Of a stretch of DNA of 26,706 nt, positions 12,779 through 26,015 are shown in pieces (position 1 is the stretch's first letter; each line of letters begins with the position of its first letter). Where the stretch lies: the UHGV virus genome UHGV-0147372; one strand, written 5' to 3'. The notes under the pieces were generated by a model. It saw only the letters and a program-made list of their open reading frames with translations. It searched no databases and was not told the origin of the DNA. The stretch comes from a virus. The position numbers were made by a program, and so were the translations under genes.

Positions 12779-13396
12779 TTACCAGTTAAAAATTGATGAG
12801 CTGCGAATTGCAGGAACATCCGATGGATTTCGTTTAGCAGCTGGTTCCATCAACTTACGCTTGTTAAATGCCTGATCAATATAATACTCAGGATTTTTAA
12901 TAAAGACAGAGTATTTTACCAATGCACAATATACGTCAGAGTCATTATAATGGGGAACTGTTTTTTCATAAACATGATTCTTTCTAACCAGATAAGGCAA
13001 ATAATAATCATATCCCCAACCTGGCGTTCTTAGACTTATAGAACATCCGCATGATGGATCTGCACATACTGCAGGAGTAAACACACTGTCGTAAATTTCA
13101 TCTCTGATAACACCAATTAGACCATTATAGTTTTCTCCCCAGAGTGATGCTTGAATTTCAGAGTTTATAAATGGACGATTTTTGGTTTCCGTTCCAATAA
13201 GAACGACAGTAACCGTTGAGTCTTTTAAAAAATCCTCACGAATAGTCCTCATTATTGTTTCATCAGTGTTAGTTGTACTAATGTCACCATCACTTACCGA
13301 CTTATCAATAAACGATTCTCCTCCGAATAAATCAATAATCTCATCTTTGAGATCTTGTTCGTTAGCATGATGATAACTAAGAAACGTCTTATGCAT
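12779..13396 (-). CDS. TIR-like (ThsB/DUF1863-like) protein, candidate NAD-processing signalling enzyme
   Basis: 205 aa; N-terminus KTFLSYHHANEQD resembles the TIR beta-A strand (FISYxHxD); block TVTVVLIGTETKNRPFINSEI resembles the ThsB/TIR beta-C/alpha-C region with the catalytic Glu; AT-rich; identification from memory of motifs, not a search. Confidence 0.5.
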   Translation of the reverse strand: MHKTFLSYHHANEQDLKDEIIDLFGGESFIDKSVSDGDISTTNTDETIMRTIREDFLKDSTVTVVLIGTETKNRPFINSEIQASLWGENYNGLIGVIRDEIYDSVFTPAVCADPSCGCSISLRTPGWGYDYYLPYLVRKNHVYEKTVPHYNDSDVYCALVKYSVFIKNPEYYIDQAFNKRKLMEPAAKRNPSDVPAIRSSSIFNW

Positions 13397-14127
13397 TATT
13401 CACTCCATTTATCAACATTTATATCAAACTCTTTGACTACCTTATCATTGAAGAAATCGTTTACTTCTTTAAAACCTTCCAATACTTGACTAAAATGATA
13501 ATAATGCTTTTGTATAGTACTTATAGGGGTTAAATGATACGGCAGTGATATAAATTCGCCGTTAGGGTCTCTATCCTTTGTGGTCACTTTATCATTATCT
13601 GAAACATATTTATGCCATCTCCGATAATTATTTTGATGCTTTGTTAAAAAAGAGTTTAACGTTTTCAAAATTTCATTTGAAAGTAAATACAGTTTTTTAT
13701 CTCTTTTTTTCTTCACATCTAGTAATTTCATTTCATCTCTAATGAATTTATAGCACTCATAATATGAGTTTAAAACTTCTTCAATTGAGTCATAATTCGG
13801 ATCAAATTTAAATAATGTTCGCTTCGTATCCAGATAATTTTTTACGCTCTTTTTAAAAAGAAGATCAGACTTATTTAGTAAAATATTAATACCACCAAAA
13901 CTAAGTTGCTCCAATCTCAATGAATATCTTTGATGAAATGCACCGACCAGCAAGATATAAGCAACTAAAAATAGTATTAATACTGATAGAAAAGCACGAA
14001 TTATGCTTACATTTGACATGAAATTAACTATAAACCACCATTTTTCAAACGGTGAAAACGGAATGCACCCCATGATAATAAGTAGAAGAACAAAGATACA
14101 ACCCCATAAAACCCACAATCTGTACAT
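13396..14127 (-). CDS. Hypothetical membrane protein (2-3 N-terminal TM helices plus a roughly 170 aa Lys/Tyr-rich soluble domain); candidate effector
   Basis: ORF track begins at a TTG at 14172 that lies inside the predicted promoter; ATG at 14127 (MYRLWVLWG...) with AAGGA upstream is preferred; stop overlaps the TIR-like start by 1 nt. Confidence 0.6.
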   Translation of the reverse strand: MYRLWVLWGCIFVLLLIIMGCIPFSPFEKWWFIVNFMSNVSIIRAFLSVLILFLVAYILLVGAFHQRYSLRLEQLSFGGINILLNKSDLLFKKSVKNYLDTKRTLFKFDPNYDSIEEVLNSYYECYKFIRDEMKLLDVKKKRDKKLYLLSNEILKTLNSFLTKHQNNYRRWHKYVSDNDKVTTKDRDPNGEFISLPYHLTPISTIQKHYYHFSQVLEGFKEVNDFFNDKVVKEFDINVDKWSE

Positions 14128-14149
14128 AAGAAAGATCCTTTTTCTTTTT

Positions 14150-14177
14150 ATAATACTGCAACTACACCTCAAGTCAA
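14150..14177 (-). promoter_or_regulatory. Candidate sigma70 promoter for the membrane-protein/TIR-like operon
   Basis: Minus-strand TTGACT (14177..14172), 16 bp spacer, TATTAT (14155..14150); about 25-45 bp upstream of the ATG at 14127. Confidence 0.35.
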
Positions 14178-14279: not shown

Positions 14280-14298
14280 CTCGTATCCCCGCCACGCC
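14280..14298 (-). other. Candidate cos cohesive-end sequence (GGCGTGGCGGGGATACGAG on the minus strand)
   Basis: 14 of 19 positions, and 12 of the first 13, match the P2 cohesive end GGCGAGGCGGGGAAAGCAC as recalled; orientation relative to Q matches P2; a GC-rich island in AT-rich surroundings; adjacent hairpin CCCGCCA-attc-TGGCGGG at 14349..14366. Confidence 0.4.
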
Positions 14299-14415
14299 TG
14301 CCCGCTTTATGTAGTAGTTTTCATGCAGGTGCATGATCTACGCGAAAGCCCGCCAATTCTGGCGGGCCCTAGCAAAAACGATCCTCAAACGATCATGCGA
14401 TCTCATGCAGCATAG

Positions 14416-15258
14416 TCATGCACGATCATTTGACTCAGCATCTGCTGCACGCTTGCTGCGCGAAGATGCACTTTTACTATCAATCTTTCGACAGTTCTTT
14501 CTATCCCTGGCTTCATTTTCTTTAAATTTGTTATATGTCTCAGTATCAAAAAACGAAATTGTTTCAACCTCATCTTTTGGTATGAGCACACGGAAATCTT
14601 CGATATTAAGCCGAGACATTCCACTTATCACACCACTATCAAGATAATGTTGGTGATAGTTAGTCGTGATACTAATCGTTAGATCATCTTTATCCCGATA
14701 TCCGCTTAACATCGGGAGAAGTTCAAGGTGCTCTGAAAGCCCGTTTTCTAACGCCGGACAAGTAACAAGACCAACATAGATTTTGCGAGACGACAGAGTT
14801 GCTATGATCGGAAACTGTCTTGCGGACGCTTCCATGAGTAATGATTCGAAAGCGTTATTACCCACAGCTTTAGCTAAGGCATCCCAGCGACGATCTCCAC
14901 GTGATGTGCGTAACTTATTTCCAAAACCTGAAATCGCAGCGAGGACAATTGAAATCATAACCCATGCTATCTGTTTGATTTCATTTATTCTTTGAAGTTT
15001 GTCTTTCGATGAAGACAACATGCCATTAAAACTGTCAGGTGTTAGATTCAAGGCATTAGCCAGCCAACGAAACCCTCCGCTGACGTTCAAAATAAAGGTG
15101 AAAAAACCGCCAAGGAGAAAAAAAACGATACCCCAGGCAGCCACAAAAAAATAAGCGTCCCAGCCGTTGGAACGCTTATATCGGTATCTTGTTGAAAGTG
15201 ATAGGTTTACATAAATAAAACCACTAACCAAAATCACTGCTAAAAGTAATGTTGCCAT
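14416..15258 (-). CDS. Hypothetical membrane protein (three predicted N-terminal TM helices plus soluble C-terminal domain)
   Basis: 280 aa ORF; hydrophobic segments at about aa 3-20, 35-56 and 100-118; start overlaps the stop of the upstream 71 aa gene by 1 nt. Confidence 0.6.
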   Translation of the reverse strand: MATLLLAVILVSGFIYVNLSLSTRYRYKRSNGWDAYFFVAAWGIVFFLLGGFFTFILNVSGGFRWLANALNLTPDSFNGMLSSSKDKLQRINEIKQIAWVMISIVLAAISGFGNKLRTSRGDRRWDALAKAVGNNAFESLLMEASARQFPIIATLSSRKIYVGLVTCPALENGLSEHLELLPMLSGYRDKDDLTISITTNYHQHYLDSGVISGMSRLNIEDFRVLIPKDEVETISFFDTETYNKFKENEARDRKNCRKIDSKSASSRSKRAADAESNDRA

Positions 15259-15473
15259 TATCTGGTTCTATTAGTTTTCTCTTTTACAGTGCTCGTTTTG
15301 ATGCCTTCAAGCTTATCCATCTGTGCCTTGATGGCATCCATTGCTCTTTTGTTAGACAAGTCTACGGACACAAAACCATCTTTACTAAGATTGAGTTTGT
15401 CCTGGTTCTCTTTAAGAACCCTTGCCAGACGTTCAACTGGGTTACCCAGGCTAAATGCGGCGATGCTTGACAT
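15258..15473 (-). CDS. Hypothetical small protein (71 aa), first gene of a two-gene accessory operon
   Basis: ATG at 15473 preceded by a strong SD (GGGGGAG) 3-4 nt upstream; translationally coupled to the 280 aa membrane protein. Confidence 0.55.
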   Translation of the reverse strand: MSSIAAFSLGNPVERLARVLKENQDKLNLSKDGFVSVDLSNKRAMDAIKAQMDKLEGIKTSTVKEKTNRTR

Positions 15474-15743
15474 AACTCCCCCTTTTCACATGGCGCGGAA
15501 GTCTACACTCCGACGCCTACAACCTCAACAGATTATCTTTAAAATTTAGACAACAATATCATCTGTTGATTGCGTTACTTAAACTTAAGTTCAATGCGCT
15601 CGATCATGCAAGCTGTTTCTTAAGAACTGTTAATTTCCTGGCATATATAGTGGTTAAGGTAACAAATTGACACTAACGCCTCGCATAGCTCGTTGTTCAA
15701 CCTTGCTGACGCCAGAAGCAAGTTCAGACGCCAGCAACGTTTC

Positions 15744-15977
15744 TTAATGCAGCCAGCTGTCGTCTTCCCACACCTTCTGCATAATTTTCATCACTTGTTT
15801 TCTTTCTTCGTCCAGTTGCAATCCGGTCAGTTCCACACCGTTAGAGCTACCTTTGCGGATACGAATTACCGTTTTGGGATACAGAGGACGCAGATTGCGG
15901 TAAAGCTCGGATTCAAGGGCGTCCAGGGTAGACTGGCTAATCTTCTGCTCTTTATCGATCATTATTTCAATGCGCAT
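15744..15977 (-). CDS. DinI-like protein (186 Tum C-terminal-domain-like; candidate SOS-induced antirepressor or RecA modulator)
   Basis: 77 aa MRIEIMIDKEQKISQSTLDALESEL...QKVWEDDSWL aligns with E. coli DinI (MRIEVTIAK...LPAGAIDALAGEL...ETWESADDWF) as recalled; downstream of a LexA box. Confidence 0.75.
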   Translation of the reverse strand: MRIEIMIDKEQKISQSTLDALESELYRNLRPLYPKTVIRIRKGSSNGVELTGLQLDEERKQVMKIMQKVWEDDSWLH

Positions 15978-16329: not shown

Positions 16330-18702
16330 TTAATACAGGTTTCGCCACTTATCATCTTCCTGCAAACGCTGGTTCCGATAGAAGATACGCAGGCCTGCTC
16401 CTGACGGAATACTGCCGCCGCGAAGGAGTAAATCGACCTCTTTCTCGCTACCATCAAATCCTCTGGACTTCAGCTCATAGACGAGCTGCTGTCGCTGATG
16501 GTCTGTAATTCGCTGTTTGTAGTCTTTACGCCGTTTCGGTTTAACCAGGCGTAACCTTGCTGCCAGTTCCCGGCGCTCTTTTTTGCTCATACTGTGCAGG
16601 TAATCGTGCAACTGCTTGTCATCCATGCGGGTAATGTCCGTTCTGGTGCCCCCATCAGCTGATTTATCTTTCTCCTGTTGGTTCAAATTTTCAGCAAGGG
16701 GACAGTTATTGCCACGAGTCCAAGGGGCGCAAGCGCCCTGGTCGGCTGCCGCCTCCTGAACGTCAACGGCCTTACGAACCATTTTCCACTTCACGGCATG
16801 AGTGCAGATCTTGCCCTCTGCAATAGGTGACCAGATGCCATAAATACGAATGCCGTGATCGCCATAGGCGGTCGGCTCTTCGTTGATTTCATAAGCAGTT
16901 CTGATGAGGTGATATTTGCGGGGAACCAGTACGCCACCCTGCTTCATGATGTAGGTGGCAAAACAACCAGCATCAGCAGCAGCCAGAATGGCATCAAGGC
17001 GCGGGTTATCCAGTACCGGCGCACCTGCTTTTTTGTCCCCCTGTTGCCTTGCCGCCTGACCAGCCAGCAATCGCAGTTCACGGTAAGCCTGACGCCCCGG
17101 AATGCCAAAGAAGCGGAATTGCTGAACACGATGCAGAGACGCCCAAGCATTAACGTATTCAGCATTATCACGCAGGGATTTCCCCGTTTCCTTGCTGATC
17201 TCGCCAGCCAGACCACGCCCGTCAATGTTCTTACTGATGTATTTCGCGATGTAGCTTGTTGGCGTACCTTTGCGCGGGTTAATCAACTCAGACTTAAAGC
17301 GCGGCCCAGTGTTATTGCCCAGCTCCTCGCGGTCTTCACGGATGGCAAACTTACGCAGTAATGCAGTGATGGTGCGGCGGTCTTTTTTGCGCATAAAACA
17401 CAACAGGTGCCAGTGAACTGTACCGTCATGATGCGGCTCAGCCACCCGCACGCCATACCACCGCAATCCGGCTTTGTGCATCGCCTTACGAAATGCAGCA
17501 AACATGCCGACCAGATAATCACTGCTTTGTCTTACCGTCGCATTTGTCCAGGTTGGGTTGGGCCTGCCGTTATTTAGCGTGGAATGGAAACGTGACGGAC
17601 AGGTGATGGTGTAGAAAACGGCGCAGTCACCGCGCATTTCCGCGATAAGCTCCAGACCTTTAACACAGGCCATCATCTCATTGCGGCGATGCGCAGGGTT
17701 GCTGCTGCTGGCGTTTACCACATCCTCCATGTCCAGCGTGTCGCCGTCTTCGTTCACCAGTTCATGAGAACGGAAAAACTCCAGCGACTTACGGCGCTGC
17801 TCACGTTTATGCATCACGGCTTCATAGCTGACATAGGGAGATGCTTTTTTGCTGACCAGGCAAACAGCACGCAACTGCTCTTCCCGCCATTCGCAACGCA
17901 TCTTCCATAATTTCCGGTACCACCAGTCGGCGCACAACATACGCGCCAGCGAACCCGGAATGAGTTCATAGGGCACGGGTTTACGGCGGTTTCTTTTCCG
18001 GCGGAGTTGCTCAAACGCAGGCGGTATGACATCCAGTCGCAGGGTTTCTGCTGCCACCTTTTCCCATGTCTTGCGGATTTCTTCTGGCTTAACGTCATCG
18101 GTGGCATACAAATCGCCACAAGCTGCATCAAGGCACATGCTCATATGCGCAGCAACAAGGGTGGACAGGCGTTTCACCTGATCCTGACTCATTTCAGGCA
18201 GAATCAGCAGGCCGTCCAGCCCTTCATGGCTTGCCATAAAGCGAAAAGAAGTGGATAGCTGACTGTCGCGCACATGCTCCAGCCGTTCCAGACATGGCTT
18301 AATCGTCTCACGCAAATAGCGGGAATAAGCCTTTGGCCTGCCAAGGCTGCTGAAGTATTCAATACGTTGCATCAGCGGCTTGCTGATATGGGAAGGCTGG
18401 GCATTGACGTCCGCCAGAATGACCATATCTGGATTAAAACGCTGCTGCTCATGCGCCAGCTTTGCCCGACTAATGAGCTTATCCTGCTCCATTTCGCGCT
18501 GGACAGGATCACGGGATTCATTAAAGAAATAACGCTCCCAGACCTGATCACTCAGTACCTCGCGGCGCAGGTGTTCCTGCTCGTTATCGGCAGCGTACAG
18601 AGCGATCAGGTTTGAAAGCGCAGAAACTGAAGATTGCTCTTCTGTCTCTACGTAAGGATTGATTGCTTTTTTCTCAGCATTCCAGGAATAGCTGTAGTTC
18701 AT
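16330..18702 (-). CDS. A: Replication initiation endonuclease gpA (rolling-circle initiator)
   Basis: 790 aa; P2/186 gene A size class and position at the end of the early operon. Confidence 0.88.
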
Positions 18703-19532
18703 TACGCAATCTCCAGTTCGAGCTGTGAAGGCTGCAAACCATTCGACAGCCAGTCAGAAACTGAAGGTGGGCGAACAGCTTCAATTGCACCTTTTAAAAT
18801 TGCGCAACGGTTTTTCAGAATGACAGCTTTCAGCTCCTTTTCCGTCAGATTGCGCGAATACTCAGCCTCCTGAATAGCCCGCGTAAGCTCAGGATATTTG
18901 CTATTAAATTTGGGGACATTGCAGGCAAGATTTGTACTGTCGGCAGTCGCCAGTGGGTAATTTCCCAACACACGACCGTCAAGCATGCGCAAACCATGAA
19001 CAGCTGTTTTGAAATTGTGTCGGCAATAAATTGCTTCAAAAGCGTCCTGCATACGACGATGCCAGTGCGCAGTTCTAATAGCCGCATATTCACCAGACGA
19101 TCCAAAGCAGACACGAGGCCATTCACGACATAGCTCGATAAGCCGATCGATTGACTCGTGCAGATGCCAGACGGGAGTTGCCTTCCCGTAGAACATTTTC
19201 GGAACTTCGTTTATCAGGGCATCATTGTCACGTTCACCTCCGTCCACAACATCAGGAATGACAAAAAAAGCGACCTTAGGATGGTAGTAATAGTTCAGGA
19301 GCCATTTATAAAAATCATTCCAGTTAATTTTTAGCCCACGCACCCATGCAGAAAATGCGCCGTTATCAATGCCAACGACCTGGGCGTGCTGAATGGACGC
19401 CGCAATCTGATCTGGTCGTACATAGGAGACGAAAGCACCAGCTCCGCTCACCGCAATACGATGAACGTCGCCAGCACTTCCCCAGACAGGCGTCCCATGG
19501 AAATGATGAATTCCGTGGTGCATTTCTTTCAC
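18702..19532 (-). CDS. TGT-fold (DpdA-like DNA transglycosylase) candidate; otherwise hypothetical
   Basis: 276 aa; motifs VGIDNGAFS (compare TGT LTDSGGFQ), FFVIPDVVD (compare IVMIFDEC) and FGSSGE (compare VGGLAVGE) in TGT order, with no zinc-binding C-terminus; ATGA overlap with Dam upstream and TAATG overlap with A downstream. Confidence 0.35.
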
Positions 19533-22272: not shown

Positions 22273-23214
22273 ATGTCAACTAATAAAATCACATTTCGCC
22301 ATATTGAAGATCATCTGAAAGCCATGGTCATGCAGAATCGAGGAGGGCAAAAAGTCATTGAGAGAATACTCATGGCCTATGGTTTCAAATCACGCCAAGC
22401 ATTCTGTAACCACCTTGGTATTTCACAAAGTACAATGGCTAACAGATATGCACGCGATACCTTCCCTGCTGATTGGGTTGTTATATGTTCAATGGAAACT
22501 GGCGCATCAATCGAATGGTTAGCATTTGGTTTAGATGCTGAAGAAGGAGTGCCAGCTCCTTCGCCAGAACGGCATGCTGAAAAACAGTCTGCAGATGAAT
22601 TTTGCAATGAAGTTCACACCCCCACGATAAAGTTCGATAATGAAAACCACATGGATTTCACTCGAGGGGGTAAAGCAGCAATAGAGCGAATTGTTAAGGC
22701 TTACGGTTACAAAACGCGCCAAGCCTTAGCCGATCACCTTGGTATCTCAAAAAGCACATTAGCTACACGATACATGCGAGACATTTTTCCGGCAGACTGG
22801 ATCATCCAATGCTGTTTAGAAACAGGAGTGTCTCTCGAGTGGTTATCTTTTGGTAAGGGGCATTCCAATCAAACAAAGCTAAGTGGGTTGCTTACATTAG
22901 ACTGCTATGATCTACGTGACGGCAAACTTACTGATCAAAGAGAATTAATCGTTTCGAGCGAAATTTTACCTCAAAATTTAAAACATCCCTATATAGTTAA
23001 TTCCGCAAATGATTCATATATCATTAGCAAAGAGGAGTATCTTAGCGATGGTCTATGGTTAGTATCTATTAACGGAGAATTTACTTTTAGAGACATATTT
23101 AAACTTCCAAACAATCGCATCCGCGTTGAAAACACAAAATATAGCTTTGAATGCGATAAAGAAGATTTGGAATTTAATAATAAAGTTAAAGGAATAATTA
23201 GAAAAAGGGTTTAA
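22273..23214 (+). CDS. cI: CI-type immunity repressor with tandemly duplicated N-terminal DNA-binding domain
   Basis: 313 aa; two roughly 60 aa copies (KVIERILMAYGFKSRQAFCNHLGISQSTMANRYARDTFPADWVVICSMETGASIEWLAFG and AAIERIVKAYGYKTRQALADHLGISKSTLATRYMRDIFPADWIIQCCLETGVSLEWLSFG) resembling the 186 CI N-terminal domain, then a C-terminal domain. Confidence 0.75.
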   Translation: MSTNKITFRHIEDHLKAMVMQNRGGQKVIERILMAYGFKSRQAFCNHLGISQSTMANRYARDTFPADWVVICSMETGASIEWLAFGLDAEEGVPAPSPERHAEKQSADEFCNEVHTPTIKFDNENHMDFTRGGKAAIERIVKAYGYKTRQALADHLGISKSTLATRYMRDIFPADWIIQCCLETGVSLEWLSFGKGHSNQTKLSGLLTLDCYDLRDGKLTDQRELIVSSEILPQNLKHPYIVNSANDSYIISKEEYLSDGLWLVSINGEFTFRDIFKLPNNRIRVENTKYSFECDKEDLEFNNKVKGIIRKRV

Positions 23215-23216
23215 CA

Positions 23217-24266
23217 ATGAGCTTTACGAAAACTATTGAATTTGCAAACTATACCTTAAATTTTGGAGAGGACAAAGTTCTCTTAGATGCTTTTGATTGC
23301 ATTGTTTTTCCTTCATTTTTCGCACAAAAATACGTTAGAAAATTTAAAGATACAGAATATTTCTTTACTGACACAAAAATTATTACGTTAGATACTACAG
23401 ATTCAGATTTTATTGGTCCTATAGTTCCAACAATTGCATTGTGTGGCCGCATTATAAAAAAGACCATATTTAAACGAGATCAAATATTTCAAGATGGTCA
23501 ATTAATTCGAGATCACAGGACGCTAGAAAGTCACCCCAGCTCTATTTTTATTCTTATGCTTAATGAGCACAGATTAATGCTTTGCAAAGAGGTTTCTGGA
23601 GCCCCTACCCTAGAAGAATTTGAAAATACTAGCAAGTATTGCCTTGCACAGCGATATAATTCTTTTGTGGATTACGAAGTAAAAAAAAATAAAAGAATTA
23701 GAAAGAAAAAATCATACATTGATCGACTGTATAAAAAAGATATTTATCGTAAACTAGGAGCCCCCAAATTACGGGTTACCCCCTTAACAGACCCAAGATC
23801 ATTGAGCAATTTTGTTGAACTCTTTTCTGTTGTTAATAGATTATCAATTGAGTTATTGCCAACAAATAGTGAAAATATATCTCTTGATGGCTTCTGGAGG
23901 AAAATTGAACAAGAAAAAGAAGAACTTAATAGTAGTAAAGCTCAATTAGTATACACAAATAAAAATGAAGATGGTTTAAATTCTGAGGCCGTCATTCAAA
24001 AAACAACAAGTGCAACCCGAATGGCCAACTCTAAAGTAATTATAAGTGGTAAAGATGAACACGGAGCAAGGCTATCAGGGAATAATGATAGTTTTACTCT
24101 AAAAGCATCAAGGCCACAACTTAGTTCTGATTTGGAAAGAGCTGCTCAAGAGGCGTATTCTGCATTCACAGAATTAAAGGATGCAGGAAATATTATCATT
24201 CCAGAACGTGAAGATTATACTAAAATTTTTTCCAAGTTAACATCAATAATTTCTAGGTGGCTATAG
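23217..24266 (+). CDS. Hypothetical cytoplasmic protein (349 aa), AT-rich, co-transcribed with cI; RexA-like by position only
   Basis: Starts 2 nt after the cI stop; no recognisable motif; Lys/Asn-rich AT-biased composition. Confidence 0.6.
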   Translation: MSFTKTIEFANYTLNFGEDKVLLDAFDCIVFPSFFAQKYVRKFKDTEYFFTDTKIITLDTTDSDFIGPIVPTIALCGRIIKKTIFKRDQIFQDGQLIRDHRTLESHPSSIFILMLNEHRLMLCKEVSGAPTLEEFENTSKYCLAQRYNSFVDYEVKKNKRIRKKKSYIDRLYKKDIYRKLGAPKLRVTPLTDPRSLSNFVELFSVVNRLSIELLPTNSENISLDGFWRKIEQEKEELNSSKAQLVYTNKNEDGLNSEAVIQKTTSATRMANSKVIISGKDEHGARLSGNNDSFTLKASRPQLSSDLERAAQEAYSAFTELKDAGNIIIPEREDYTKIFSKLTSIISRWL

Positions 24267-24267
24267 T

Positions 24268-24873
24268 ATGAAATATACATTCAACCCAGAAGATCTGACC
24301 AAAGAGCGATCTTTGCATGATGTTTACAAATTAACTAAAAAAATAAAGGTCAATTCATTTGACTTTTATTTCACATTATTATTAGTGATATTATTATCTA
24401 TTAATGCTTTTTGTCTATCTTCATCACCAGAGTTAATTTCATCTATTAGACAATGGACACCTTTAGTATTCGGATTCACTACAACAACATTAGGTTTTTT
24501 AATTACTGGATTTACAATATTTGCAACCATAAATAAACCTGAACTTTTCCTTTCATTAATGGAGTATAAGCATCCATTATACGGGATAAGTTACTTAAAA
24601 TATGTTTATGGCGTATTTATGAGAGTATTTATATATTTCATATTTTGGTCTGTTATCTATCTTTTAGTCCTTCTTTTCGGGCAAGAAAATGGATTGGCTA
24701 CAAAATTACTCAGAGCCTTAATGTTTTCTCATTGCACTAAAGTTGTTGGAGTTCAAATACTATATATACTCGTAGGAAGCAGTGCAGTGTTCCTTGTATT
24801 AACTTTAAAAACTTTCCTGTTCAATATTTATGCTATGTTAATGCAATCTCTACGCTGGGAAGTAGAAAGATAA
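24268..24873 (+). CDS. Hypothetical polytopic membrane protein (201 aa, about 4-5 TM); RexB-like by architecture only
   Basis: Starts 1 nt after the stop of the upstream gene; several 20-residue hydrophobic segments. Confidence 0.62.
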   Translation: MKYTFNPEDLTKERSLHDVYKLTKKIKVNSFDFYFTLLLVILLSINAFCLSSSPELISSIRQWTPLVFGFTTTTLGFLITGFTIFATINKPELFLSLMEYKHPLYGISYLKYVYGVFMRVFIYFIFWSVIYLLVLLFGQENGLATKLLRALMFSHCTKVVGVQILYILVGSSAVFLVLTLKTFLFNIYAMLMQSLRWEVER

Positions 24874-24962
24874 AATTAACCTCAATGTATGAATCTCAAT
24901 TCATATACATTGACACTGGTTATACATACAGTAAAAATGCTCTCCACTGGAGGGCATTTTTT

Positions 24963-26015
24963 ATGGCAGTACGAAAACTCACCACAGGAAAATGGCTATG
25001 CGAATGTTACCCCGCGGGACGTAGTGGACGTCGTGTGCGTAAACAATTCGCCACCAAAGGTGAAGCTCTGGCTTTTGAGCGTCACACGATGGAAGAAACC
25101 GAAGCAAAGCCCTGGCTGGGTGAATCAGTGGATCGTCGAACACTGAAAGACGTGGTTGAGCTATGGTTCAAACTACATGGTAAATCTCTGACAGCTGGGC
25201 AGCATGTCTATGACAAATTGCTGTTGATAGTTGACGCTCTGGGCAATCCCCTTGCAACCGATCTCACCTCTAAAATGTTTGCCCACTATCGAGATAAACG
25301 CCTGACAGGAGAGATCTACTTCAGCGAAAAATGGAAGAAAGGAGCAAGCCCGGTCACCATTAACCTGGAGCAAAGCTATCTTAGTAGTGTTTTTAGCGAA
25401 CTATCCCGCCTGGGCGAATGGTCGTATCCGAACCCACTGGAGAACATGCGAAAATTCACCATCGCTGAAAAAGAGATGGCATGGCTTACCCATGAGCAGA
25501 TTGTTGAATTACTGGCTGATTGCAAACGTCAGGACCCAATTCTGGCACTGGTAGTTAAGATATGCTTAAGCACAGGCGCACGCTGGCGAGAAGCCGTAAA
25601 TCTTACTCGTTCACAGGTGACCAAATACCGAATTACCTTTGTAAGAACGAAGGGGAAGAAAAACAGAAGCATCCCTATCAGTAAAGAGCTTTACGAAGAG
25701 ATCATGGCGCTTGATGGGTTCAATTTCTTCACAGACTGCTATTTTCAATTTTTATCCGTGATGGAAAAAACGTCTATCGTGCTCCCTCGCGGTCAACTCA
25801 CACACGTTCTGCGCCATACGTTTGCGGCGCACTTCATGATGTCGGGTGGAAACATCCTGGCCTTACAAAAAATTCTCGGACATCACGATATAAAAATGAC
25901 GATGCGTTACGCACATCTGGCACCGGATCATCTGGAAACGGCGCTCCGTTTCAATCCTCTGGCAACGCTGCCAAGTGGCGACAAAGTGGCGGCAGCGGTT
26001 GGCATTACCCCGTAA
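24963..26015 (+). CDS. int: Tyrosine integrase (P2 Int family)
   Basis: Start set to the ATG at 24963 (MAVRKLTTGKWLCECYPAGRSGRRVRKQF...), aligning with the P2 Int N-terminus (MAIKKLDDGRYEVDIRPTGRNGKRIRRKF...); conserved LSTGARW.EA, HVLRHTFA and MRYAH boxes. Confidence 0.9.
   Translation: MAVRKLTTGKWLCECYPAGRSGRRVRKQFATKGEALAFERHTMEETEAKPWLGESVDRRTLKDVVELWFKLHGKSLTAGQHVYDKLLLIVDALGNPLATDLTSKMFAHYRDKRLTGEIYFSEKWKKGASPVTINLEQSYLSSVFSELSRLGEWSYPNPLENMRKFTIAEKEMAWLTHEQIVELLADCKRQDPILALVVKICLSTGARWREAVNLTRSQVTKYRITFVRTKGKKNRSIPISKELYEEIMALDGFNFFTDCYFQFLSVMEKTSIVLPRGQLTHVLRHTFAAHFMMSGGNILALQKILGHHDIKMTMRYAHLAPDHLETALRFNPLATLPSGDKVAAAVGITP

What the first reader, a model, noticed from the sequence alone, without database searches (positions are those of the whole stretch)
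14416..15473. Second accessory pair (71 aa protein plus 3-TM membrane protein) in the classical P2 old/tin hotspot
On the other side of the candidate cos site, between cos and the SOS/DinI operon and gene A, is a two-gene operon with a strong SD and a 1 nt start/stop overlap: a small hydrophilic protein followed by a 280 aa protein with three N-terminal TM helices and a soluble C-terminal domain. This is the position where P2 carries old and tin, a known variable defence hotspot in P2-like prophages, but the proteins resemble neither as far as I can tell.
Basis: inference. Interest (0 to 1): 0.6.

Follow-up and report, generated by a model that had tools for sequence, protein, structure and literature searches.

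The report
Unnamed two-gene membrane cassette, P2 hotspot
A P2-like prophage of E. coli carries, next to its packaging site, a self-contained two-gene cassette (a small soluble protein plus a three-helix membrane protein with an Sm-like barrel inside the cell) that is widespread in phages and plasmids, has never been named or tested, and is a reasonable but unproven candidate for a phage-exclusion system.

Summary
On the minus strand, a 71-aa ORF (15258-15473) and a 280-aa ORF (14416-15258) overlap by one base (TAATG). They lie between the cos core (14286-14308) and DinI/gpA, where P2 carries old and tin.

Both genes are under purifying selection. The large protein has three TM helices and a cytoplasmic Sm/LSm-like beta-barrel. 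The small protein is soluble and basic.

Neither protein matches Pfam, NCBIfam or PADLOC. Both match only PHROGs of unknown function. The family is nevertheless large: 2888 clusters at 50% identity. A small ORF sits immediately upstream of the large gene in about 72 of 74 loci, and the two proteins co-diverge.

The cassette appears at several classic moron sites:
- the P2 cos hotspot;
- lambda-like tail clusters;
- the lambdoid nin region;
- between int and attP;
- beside repressors.

It also occurs on IncC plasmids and in small chromosomal islets.

Rousset et al. 2022 list two divergent relatives as untested P2-hotspot systems #43 and #57.

The most likely function is a prophage-borne exclusion or abortive-infection module, with the membrane protein as effector and the small protein as regulator. 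This is inference; no phenotype exists. Interest is moderate.

The parts
15258..15473 (-). Gene for the 71-aa small, basic, soluble partner protein (RefSeq WP_000094764.1; phrog_9843)
   Evidence: It is an ORF and annotated as hypothetical in RefSeq. It matches phrog_9843 at E 1.4e-36. It has 29 close homologues, often mis-named 'multidrug ABC transporter ATPase'. dN/dS is about 0.2. The AF2 model shows helix, hairpin, helix at pLDDT 68.
14416..15258 (-). Gene for the 280-aa inner-membrane protein (RefSeq WP_021556032.1; phrog_3630)
   Evidence: It is an ORF and annotated as hypothetical in RefSeq. It matches phrog_3630 at E 8.8e-99. dN/dS is about 0.04. The family has 2888 representatives at 50% identity.
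14923..15258 (-). Part of the 280-aa gene encoding the membrane domain (aa 1-112). It holds three TM helices, a conserved cytoplasmic loop RYRYKRSnGWDAYF and a variable periplasmic loop (aa 61-88).
   Evidence: Hydropathy peaks and the charge distribution are. R29, Y36 and G43 are invariant in A1. Across A5, loop 2 has a mean conservation of 0.17, against 0.45 for TM1.
14545..14853 (-). Part of the 280-aa gene encoding the cytoplasmic Sm/LSm-like beta-barrel domain (aa 136-238). It carries the near-invariant motifs SRKxYVG and LSGYRDKD.
14419..14544 (-). Part of the 280-aa gene encoding a variable, charged C-terminal tail (aa 239-280; 12 K/R and 8 D/E)
   Evidence: pLDDT is 54-70. Mean conservation is 0.13. 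Nucleotide identity to close relatives falls to 61% here.
15476..15484 (-). Shine-Dalgarno sequence AAGGGGGAG of the 71-aa gene
   Evidence: It is read directly from the sequence and is conserved as AAGGAGG/AGGGGG in relatives (A6).
15500..15528 (-). Candidate weak promoter: -35 TTGAGG (15523-15528), a 17-nt spacer, and -10 TAGACT (15500-15505). The -10 is TATAAT in Serratia inhibens.
   Evidence: This rests on my own reading and alignment A6. It matches 8 of 12 consensus positions, below the scan's threshold, so the scan did not report it. It is an inference only.
15577..15590 (.). Conserved palindrome ACTTAAGTTTAAGT upstream of the cassette genes, a possible operator
   Evidence: It is nearly invariant in all six aligned relatives. 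That includes L007, where the sequence further upstream is unrelated (A6). Its function is unknown.
14425..15620 (-). Extent of the mobile cassette: upstream control region plus the two genes, about 1.2 kb
   Evidence: Homology to Klebsiella phage ST15-OXA48phi14.1 runs from 14300 to 15620. The block 14300-14424 is shared with P2-like phages that lack the pair, so it belongs to the cos region and not to the cargo.
14286..14308 (-). cos core. This is context, not part of the cassette; it marks the downstream boundary.
   Evidence: There is an exact pattern match, with 0 expected by chance. Its sequence can be compared by eye with the P4 cos stretch in Rousset Table S2.

Best explanation
The two genes form a self-contained moron cassette of about 1.2 kb carried by a P2-like prophage.

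**What is shown**
- The two genes are translationally coupled.
- The large product is an inner-membrane protein. Its likely topology is N-terminus out, three TM helices, C-terminus in. Its conserved cytoplasmic domain has an Sm/LSm-like small beta-barrel fold.
- The small product is a basic cytoplasmic protein.
- The two proteins are inherited and diverge together.
- The unit moves between accessory sites of several temperate phage types, plasmids and chromosomes.

**What is inferred**
- The cassette is expressed from the prophage and acts in conflict between mobile elements, as a phage-exclusion or abortive-infection module.
- The membrane protein is the effector. Sm-like domains usually form rings, so it may oligomerise through that domain and disturb the membrane, or block a step at its inner face.
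- The conserved cytoplasmic barrel and loop 1 would be the site where a cytoplasmic signal is read.
- The small protein is the partner that holds the effector in check or passes the trigger to it.
For: **Cargo status**
- The region is 40-43% GC, against about 53% in the P2 core.
- The pair is present in 52 of 5426 E. coli genomes, whereas the flanking cos block is in 631.
- It sits at the old/tin locus that Rousset et al. define as a defence hotspot.

**Recurrence in that hotspot**
- Rousset Table S5B systems #43 (93 occurrences) and #57 (75 occurrences) are divergent relatives.
- They share 33% identity (E 1e-43) and 21% identity (E 3e-15) with the 280-aa protein.
- System #57 has its own small partner.

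**Other moron sites**
- Between lambda-like tail genes K and I/J in Enterobacter hormaechei.
- Just before the tape-measure gene in Aeromonas prophages.
- In the lambdoid nin region next to hok in E. coli.
- Between int and attP in phage phiES15.
- Beside the repressor in phage C5a.
- About 1.6 kb from a CI-like repressor in a Shewanella prophage.
- On IncC conjugative plasmids.
- Next to type I HsdR and to an SNF2/PLD protein in two chromosomal loci.

**A fixed two-gene unit**
- A 53-100-aa ORF lies within -13 to +20 nt of the large gene's start in most of the 74 loci that could be scored, and within 50 nt in about 72.
- Distances between small proteins track distances between large proteins (Mantel r 0.87; 0 of 2000 permutations reach it).
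- No third gene is constant: 148 neighbouring proteins hit 174 different Pfam families.

**Where sensing would occur**
- The cytoplasmic loop 1 and the barrel are the conserved parts.
- The periplasmic loop is the least conserved.
Against: - There is no phenotype of any kind, and none of the family was among the systems Rousset et al. tested.
- Neither the window proteins nor 75 relatives match any of 5027 PADLOC models.
- Enrichment of defence genes among neighbours is modest: roughly 8-10 of 148 neighbour proteins hit PADLOC at 1e-10. Many loci lie among housekeeping genes.
- No promoter reaches the scan's threshold upstream of the pair, so expression in the lysogen is not shown.
- The P2 hotspot also holds non-defence cargo, such as partition systems and cdt toxin.
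Confidence: 0.45

Rival explanations
1. It is a superinfection-exclusion protein that blocks genome entry at the inner membrane, in the manner of HK97 gp15, T4 Imm or P22 SieA. It would not act by killing or arresting the infected cell. The small protein would be an assembly or stability factor.
For: - It is an inner-membrane protein encoded at moron sites.
- Some of those sites lie inside tail gene clusters, next to tape-measure and tail-tip genes. From my own knowledge, not checked here, HK97 gene 15 lies in a comparable place.
- The periplasmic loop is the most variable part, which would fit contact with fast-evolving phage proteins.
- In L001 the pair lies across cos from a SieB-family gene.
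Against: - The conserved parts all face the cytoplasm, and the periplasmic loop is short (about 25 aa).
- A dedicated, co-diverging cytoplasmic partner is not a feature of the known entry blockers.
- The cassette is also found on plasmids and among housekeeping genes.
- tblastn against the phage collection returns no hit to HK97, T4 or P22.
Confidence: 0.2
2. It is a toxin-antitoxin style addiction module whose main role is to stabilise the mobile element that carries it. The membrane protein would be the toxin and the small upstream protein the antitoxin. Any anti-phage effect would be secondary.
For: - The small gene comes first, overlaps the larger gene, and the coupling is kept across the family (gaps of -13 to +20 nt).
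- The cassette occurs on conjugative plasmids, in prophages and as isolated chromosomal copies.
- In one lambdoid prophage it sits next to hok.
- A conserved palindrome lies upstream and could be an operator for autoregulation.
Against: - The small protein has no recognisable DNA-binding or antitoxin fold. It has no Pfam hit, and its Foldseek matches are all at E above 3.
- The large protein is long and well conserved, with a folded cytoplasmic domain. That is unlike the short membrane-toxin peptides known from toxin-antitoxin systems (my own knowledge).
- The large gene shows strong purifying selection (dN/dS 0.04), and intact copies are common.
Confidence: 0.15
3. It is lysogenic-conversion cargo unrelated to phage or plasmid conflict. 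One example would be a membrane-tethered Sm/Hfq-like RNA- or ligand-binding protein that changes host physiology or stress tolerance.
For: - The Sm-like fold matches RNA chaperones, WYL ligand sensors and the Rho inhibitor YaeO/Rof.
- Both proteins have basic tails.
- Many loci have only housekeeping neighbours.
- The hotspot is known to hold non-defence cargo.
Against: - Neither the Pfam LSM nor the Hfq model matches, so the Sm sequence motifs are not recognisable.
- The basic tails are not conserved in the family.
- The patchy distribution, with repeated capture at moron sites in unrelated phages, is more typical of conflict genes.
Confidence: 0.12
4. It serves the carrying phage's own lytic cycle, for example lysis timing, tail or tape-measure handling, or packaging near cos.
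For: - It is adjacent to cos in P2-likes.
- In Aeromonas prophages it lies between the major tail protein and the tape-measure gene, where tail-chaperone genes normally sit (my own knowledge), and no such ORFs are visible there.
Against: - Most P2-like phages lack it.
- Its position differs from one phage type to another.
- It is also present on plasmids and in chromosomal sites without phage genes.
- Its GC content marks it as foreign to the P2 core.
Confidence: 0.04

Closest known systems
Rousset et al. 2022 (PMC9122126) Table S5B, P2-hotspot systems #43 and #57 (uncharacterised, no Pfam)
   Same: - They belong to the same protein family: 33% identity (E 1e-43) and 21% identity (E 3e-15) to the 280-aa protein, including the SRKxYVG and SGYRDKD motifs.
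- They occupy the same gpA-gpQ hotspot of E. coli P2-like prophages.
- System #57 is listed with a 78-aa partner of the 'VVGRG' type.
   Different: - They are very divergent branches.
- System #43 is listed as a single gene.
- Phobius counted 2 TM helices there, against 3 by my hydropathy analysis.
- Neither was cloned or tested, so they add recurrence but no function.
Lambda RexA/RexB abortive-infection system
   Same: It is a two-gene, prophage-expressed unit with one cytoplasmic and one membrane component. The proposed logic is the same: a cytoplasmic event gates a membrane effector. This comparison rests on my own knowledge of Rex.
   Different: - There is no sequence similarity, and PADLOC gives no hit.
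- The sizes are inverted: RexA is the large soluble sensor and RexB a small 4-TM channel.
- Here the membrane protein itself carries the folded cytoplasmic domain.
Membrane-effector systems of the P2/P4 hotspots: gop-beta-cII, Hydrolase+3TM, RT-nitrilase+1TM and 2TM+1TM+TIR (Rousset 2022)
   Same: They share the same kind of locus, next to cos in P2 or P4, and are short operons that include a TM protein taken to be the effector.
   Different: - There is no homology to any of their proteins (PADLOC). Motif strings from this family are absent from Table S2.
- Those systems pair the TM protein with an enzyme or TIR domain.
- Here the only partner is a 71-aa protein with no recognisable domain.
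Sm/LSm/Hfq fold, including WYL sensor domains and YaeO/Rof
   Same: - The predicted cytoplasmic domain has an N-terminal helix followed by a strongly bent five-strand sheet.
- The best PDB sequence-profile hit is YaeO, at E 0.059.
   Different: - No Pfam LSM or Hfq match is found, so the Sm sequence motifs are not recognisable.
- The domain is fused to three TM helices.
- It has an insert of about 25 residues between the fourth strand and the last two strands.
- Ring formation and RNA or ligand binding are untested.
HK97 gp15, T4 Imm and P22 SieA entry-exclusion proteins
   Same: They are inner-membrane moron products expressed from prophages. Some are encoded inside tail gene clusters, as this family is in some siphophage prophages. 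The comparison with the known proteins rests on my own knowledge.
   Different: - There is no sequence similarity.
- Those are single small proteins.
- They have no conserved cytoplasmic domain and no dedicated partner.
Lactococcal AbiP (membrane-anchored, nucleic-acid-binding Abi protein)
   Same: The concept is the same: an Abi protein tethered to the membrane by N-terminal TM segments, with a cytoplasmic domain that could bind nucleic acid. This is recalled from the literature and was not checked here.
   Different: Homology was not tested directly. AbiP is a single gene from Gram-positive plasmids. Nucleic-acid binding by the present protein is only a conjecture from its fold.

Membership tests
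P2 Old (OLD-family ATPase + TOPRIM nuclease) | ABC-type ATPase domain and TOPRIM nuclease domain; sequence similarity to P2 old | tested here: not met
   Pfam, NCBIfam and PADLOC give no hit for either protein. tblastn of the 280-aa protein against 50,697 phage records returns no P2 record.
P2 Tin | Sequence similarity to P2 tin | tested here: not met
   tblastn of the 280-aa protein finds no P2 record. The 71-aa protein's homologues are all partners of this family. The 71-aa protein was not itself searched against P2.
Sm/LSm/Hfq superfamily | Fold: N-terminal helix plus five strongly bent antiparallel strands forming a small barrel | tested here: met
Sm/LSm/Hfq superfamily | Sm1/Sm2 sequence motifs, recognisable by the Pfam LSM or Hfq models | tested here: not met
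   There is no Pfam hit at E up to 1 for the window protein, and none among 75 relatives. The best PDB profile hit is YaeO at E 0.059.
Sm/LSm/Hfq superfamily | Hexameric or heptameric ring; binding of RNA or another ligand | not testable with these tools
   No multimer prediction or binding assay was available.
MscS-type mechanosensitive channels (3 TM helices + Sm-like beta domain) | Match to the MS_channel Pfam models; pore-lining TM3 followed directly by the beta domain and an alpha/beta domain | tested here: not met
Known anti-phage defence systems (PADLOC-DB v2.0.0, 2023) | Match to any of 5027 defence protein models | tested here: not met
   There are no significant hits for either window protein, and none for 75 diverse family members. 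Systems described after 2023 and the DefenseFinder models were not searched.
Type II toxin-antitoxin modules | Small upstream antitoxin gene overlapping or abutting the toxin gene | tested here: met
   The window has a TAATG overlap. Across the family most gaps are -13 to +20 nt, and a small ORF lies within 50 nt in about 72 of 74 loci.
Type II toxin-antitoxin modules | Antitoxin with a DNA-binding fold (RHH, HTH, AbrB); toxicity of the toxin alone, neutralised by the antitoxin | tested here: inconclusive
   The small proteins have no Pfam domain. The AF2 model has low confidence and no fold match. Toxicity cannot be tested here.
Rousset 2022 P2-hotspot systems #43/#57 (unnamed family) | Sequence homology over the full length and location in the gpA-gpQ hotspot | tested here: met
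   BLASTP gives 1e-43 (33% identity over 257 aa) and 3e-15 (21% identity over 279 alignment columns). The location is shown.
Tai (tail assembly inhibition) systems | Homology to phi80 TaiEcA (26 kDa; no transmembrane segment is mentioned in the paper) | tested here: not met
   tblastn against the phage collection gives no phi80 hit. The paper describes a single 26-kDa protein and never uses the word 'transmembrane'.
Pfam DUF6338 | Match above the Pfam gathering score | tested here: inconclusive
   Only 3 of 75 relatives match, weakly (best E 4.6e-05), and the window protein does not match at all. A distant link is possible, but the family is uncharacterised anyway.

The most novel reading that the evidence does not exclude
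The family is a new class of abortive-infection effector. The Sm-like domains assemble into a ring held against the inner face of the membrane, like an Hfq ring on a leash. The ring reads a nucleic-acid or protein signal of infection. The co-evolving 71-aa protein caps it until then. On release, the ring uses its 18-21 TM helices to open or disturb the membrane. If so, an RNA-chaperone fold would be acting as the sensor and gate of a membrane effector, in a family of thousands of unannotated proteins spread across phages, plasmids and chromosomes of Proteobacteria.
Probability: 0.15. Interest if true: 0.75.

Novelty: new variant of a known kind. Interest (0 to 1): 0.48.

Why it matters
The P2 and P4 cos-proximal hotspots are among the best-validated places to find new anti-phage systems, yet most of their catalogued cargo is untested. 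This pair belongs to a family that occupies that hotspot in at least three divergent forms. The same family also turns up at moron sites of lambda-like, HK97-like and other temperate phages and on IncC plasmids. It has thousands of members, no name in any curated database, and a mis-annotation for its small partner ('multidrug ABC transporter ATPase').

If it proves to be an exclusion system, it would add a new protein family to the known repertoire. It would also add a new architecture: three TM helices, a cytoplasmic Sm-like barrel and a mini-partner. A sizeable set of 'hypothetical' prophage genes could then be annotated. If it proves to be something else, it still marks a common, mobile two-gene unit whose function is unknown.

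Tried and rejected
- **Family databases.** Pfam, NCBIfam and PADLOC scans of both proteins gave nothing significant. PHROGs gave only families of unknown function.
- **Diverse relatives.** Pfam and PADLOC scans of 75 diverse relatives gave only 3 weak DUF6338 hits and no PADLOC hit. The one paper that mentions DUF6338 is uninformative.
- **Small partners.** A Pfam scan of ten divergent small partners found nothing.
- **Small-protein fold.** The AF2 model has pLDDT 68, and every Foldseek match has E above 3.
- **Literature.**
  - Searches by eight protein accessions found no paper.
  - Keyword searches for Sm-like or membrane anti-phage systems found only WYL regulators.
- **Tai systems.** I considered them because some relatives sit in tail clusters. 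I rejected them: Tai is a different 26-kDa protein, and there is no hit to phi80.
- **Promoter scan.** It found no site upstream of the pair at its threshold. My candidate promoter matches only 8 of 12 positions.
- **P2 cos search.** The exact 19-nt P2 cos sequence has no match at up to 3 mismatches. A degenerate core pattern matched at 14286-14308.
- **Partner homology.** Profile-profile comparison did not link the window-type small proteins to the Pseudomonas '...SWAC' and 'VVGRG' partner types (P about 0.02). Those two types are related to each other (94% probability). Homology of all partners is therefore plausible but unproven.
- **Missing library.** The afdb50 structure library was unavailable.
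- **A constant third gene.** None was found: 148 neighbouring proteins hit 174 different Pfam families.
Full report
**1. The observation**

The window is a P2-like prophage of E. coli. It is 100% identical over 14300-15700 to strain ECCRA-119 and several other strains.

On the minus strand lie a 71-aa ORF (15258-15473) and a 280-aa ORF (14416-15258). The stop of the first and the start of the second share one base (TAATG). The 71-aa gene is preceded by AAGGGGGAG, which ends 2 nt before its ATG.

Hydropathy gives three membrane segments in the large protein, at aa 1-19, 39-57 and 94-112. It gives none in the small protein.

- The cos core is at 14286-14308.
- The block 14300-14424 is conserved in P2-like phages that lack the pair, so it belongs to the cos region.
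- DinI is at 15744-15977 and gpA at 16330-18702.
- Rousset et al. (PMC9122126) define this gpA-gpQ, cos-proximal region as the P2 hotspot where P2 itself carries old and tin.
- In Salmonella phages SEN4 and SEN5, a relative sits about 230 bp from the right end of the linear genome record.

**2. Are these real genes?**

Yes.
- dN/dS against three relatives is 0.035-0.048 for the large gene and 0.18-0.22 for the small one.
- Both are annotated as hypothetical proteins in RefSeq (WP_021556032.1 and WP_000094764.1).
- Both match PHROGs of unknown function: phrog_3630 at E 9e-99 and phrog_9843 at E 1e-36.
- The pair is 40-43% GC, against about 53% in the P2 core genes.
- Only 52 of 5426 complete E. 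coli genomes carry it, while 631 carry the adjacent cos block.

It is accessory cargo. Homology to the closest phage record, Klebsiella phage ST15-OXA48phi14.1, runs from the cos block to about 147 nt upstream of the small gene. The cassette is therefore about 1.2 kb and includes an upstream control region.

**3. The upstream control region**

Six relatives share two features in this region (alignment A6):
- a palindrome, ACTTAAG(T)TTAAGT, at 15577-15590;
- a -10-like element, TAGACT in the window and TATAAT in Serratia inhibens, at 15500-15505, with TTGAGG 17 nt upstream.

This candidate promoter matches only 8 of 12 consensus positions. The scan did not report it. Expression in the lysogen is plausible but not shown.

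**4. The large protein**

An AlphaFold2 model built from 35 homologues has a mean pLDDT of 78. It shows three long helices, then two short helices, then a beta-rich domain (aa 136-236) and a long, poorly predicted C-terminal helix.

- The Foldseek top 50 are all Sm/LSm entries, with target-normalised TM-scores mostly 0.5-0.75. No E-value reaches 0.001; the best is 4e-3.
- A profile of 75 relatives finds the Sm-like protein YaeO/Rof as its best PDB sequence match, at a non-significant E of 0.059.

I accept an Sm-like small barrel at the level of fold. The Pfam LSM and Hfq models do not match, so the Sm sequence motifs are not recognisable. Ring formation cannot be tested here.

Charge distribution supports a topology with the N-terminus out and the C-terminus in. 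Loop 1 (aa 20-34) has 4 K/R, and the segment after TM3 has 6 K/R. That puts the barrel in the cytoplasm.

Conservation across 75 diverse members is highest in TM1, loop 1 and the barrel. The barrel carries the motifs SRKxYVG and LSGYRDKD. Conservation is lowest in the periplasmic loop and the C-terminal tail.

**5. The small protein**

It is basic (14 K/R, 9 D/E) and soluble. The model shows helix, hairpin, helix at low confidence and has no fold match. It has no Pfam family. NCBI often names it 'multidrug ABC transporter ATPase', which is plainly wrong for a protein of 71 aa.

**6. The family**

A profile search of 1.84 billion cluster representatives finds 2888 proteins at E up to 1e-3 and 2013 at E up to 1e-10. 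Nearly all of the 150 listed are 240-290 aa long. Every source name I could retrieve is 'hypothetical', apart from one spurious 'HrcA' label.

A scan of one genome per species returned 80 loci. They come from:
- Enterobacterales;
- Aeromonas, Vibrionaceae and Shewanella;
- Pasteurellaceae and Neisseria;
- Pseudomonas, Xanthomonas and Psychrobacter;
- Alteromonas;
- Acidobacteriota.

In about 72 of the 74 loci with an intact large gene, an ORF of 53-100 aa ends close to its start. Most gaps are -13 to +20 nt.

Iterated profile searches join 46 sequences, the window protein and 45 of these small ORFs, into one family. The partners in Pseudomonas ('...SWAC') and a 'VVGRG' group are related to each other (hhalign probability 94%). 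They are not significantly related to the window type.

Within the window-type group, distances between small proteins track distances between large proteins (Mantel r 0.87; 0 of 2000 permutations reach it).

No third gene is constant: 148 neighbouring proteins hit 174 different Pfam families. The unit is a two-gene module.

**7. Where the module sits**

Close relatives (46% identity or more) are in P2-like prophages between gpA and the portal gene. Other members lie in these places:
- between lambda-like tail genes K and I/J in Enterobacter hormaechei;
- directly before the tape-measure gene in Aeromonas prophages;
- in a lambdoid nin region next to hok in E. coli;
- between int and attP in Cronobacter phage phiES15;
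- beside the repressor in Pseudoalteromonas phage C5a;
- about 1.6 kb from a CI-like repressor in a Shewanella prophage;
- on IncC conjugative plasmids of Salmonella, after a RecD-like helicase;
- next to type I HsdR, and next to an SNF2/PLD protein, in two chromosomal loci;
- among ordinary housekeeping genes elsewhere.

In Pectobacterium, the trio of DinI, small gene and large gene survives alone in the chromosome.

Roughly 8-10 of the 148 neighbours hit PADLOC models at 1e-10. That is only a mild enrichment.

**8. Status in the literature**

Rousset Table S5A lists the window's two accessions as 'hypothetical + hypothetical' in P2 loci.

Table S5B lists two divergent relatives as curated systems without Pfam domains:
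- system #43: 93 occurrences, 33% identity, E 1e-43;
- system #57: 75 occurrences, 21% identity, E 3e-15, listed with a 78-aa 'VVGRG' partner.

No sequence of the family appears in Table S2, which holds the systems that were cloned, whether active or not.

The 2026 follow-up study of P2 and P4 repertoires does not use the words 'transmembrane' or 'superinfection exclusion'. I found nothing on this pair in the parts I read. Accession and keyword searches found nothing further.

The family is catalogued but unnamed and untested.

**9. How it most likely works**

Shown:
- It is a mobile, translationally coupled two-gene cassette.
- The large product is an inner-membrane protein with a conserved cytoplasmic Sm-like barrel.
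- It has a co-diverging small cytoplasmic partner.
- The cassette has been captured repeatedly at sites where temperate phages keep accessory cargo.

Inferred:
- It acts in conflict between mobile elements, most likely as an exclusion or abortive-infection module.
- The membrane protein is the effector.
- The conserved cytoplasmic surface (loop 1 and the barrel) is where the signal is read.
- The small protein restrains or triggers the effector.

I put this at about 0.45. The rivals are:
- entry-blocking superinfection exclusion (0.20);
- an addiction or toxin-antitoxin role (0.15);
- lysogenic conversion unrelated to conflict (0.12);
- a role in the phage's own cycle (0.04).

The cytoplasmic location of everything that is conserved, together with the dedicated partner, favours cytoplasmic sensing over a periplasmic entry block. 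The positions inside tail clusters and the variable periplasmic loop keep the entry-block reading alive.

**10. Verdict**

Its interpretation is reasonable but unproven.

The pair is not a member of any named defence family. It belongs to a large unnamed family, two branches of which were already listed, untested, in the same hotspot.

I rate it a new variant of a known kind: prophage hotspot cargo with a membrane effector. Interest is moderate. The membrane-tethered Sm-like domain and the size of the unannotated family make it a worthwhile target for a simple cloning and phage-challenge experiment.

Noticed in passing
window 12779-14172 (-): This is the accessory pair on the other side of cos. 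It consists of a 205-aa ThsB-like TIR protein (PF08937, 1.5e-14; PADLOC ThsB, 3e-12) and a 258-aa membrane protein, at 27-36% GC. It matches Rousset 2022 Table S5B system #35 ('DUF1863', 107 occurrences, 2 TM helices in protein 1). It is not in their tested set. It lacks a ThsA-type effector, so the membrane protein may be the effector.
   Followed up: partly
window 23217-24266 (+) and 24268-24873 (+): Two tightly packed ORFs (349 aa and 201 aa) lie between the CI repressor (22273-23214) and the integrase (24885-26015). They have no Pfam and no PADLOC hit. They form a third accessory pair, in the part of P2 between integrase and primase that the 2026 study lists as a minor defence hotspot.
   Followed up: partly
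window 18702-19532 (-): A 276-aa ORF between gpA and the Dam methylase has no Pfam or PADLOC hit. It is absent from L001, where the methylase follows gpA directly.
   Followed up: no
window 14416-15473 compared with L002, L003 and L006: Synonymous divergence of the 71-aa gene (dS 0.46-0.49) is about four times lower than that of the 280-aa gene (dS 1.9-2.3) against the same relatives. Nucleotide identity is 83-92% across the small gene and TM1/TM2, and 65-75% across the loop 2/TM3 region. This points either to a mosaic history inside the cassette or to extra constraint on its 5' half.
   Followed up: partly
window 15577-15590: The palindrome ACTTAAGTTTAAGT lies about 105 nt upstream of the 71-aa start codon. 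It is nearly invariant in six relatives, including one whose further upstream sequence is unrelated. It may be an operator; no binding protein has been identified.
   Followed up: no
L094 5560-6850 (Aeromonas caviae prophage) and L017: In these siphophage-type prophages the pair lies between the major tail protein gene and the tape-measure gene, where tail-assembly chaperone genes normally sit. No chaperone-like ORFs are visible there.
   Followed up: partly
L092 5372-6819 (Pectobacterium): DinI, the small gene and the large gene persist together between an MscS-family channel gene and an MFS transporter gene, with no other phage genes within 6 kb. This is either a relic of the cos-proximal end of a P2-like prophage or a separately mobile trio.
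   Followed up: no
protein database entries for the 71-aa family (P0059-P0083): NCBI and UniRef widely name these 55-75-aa proteins 'multidrug ABC transporter ATPase'. This is a propagated mis-annotation.
   Followed up: yes
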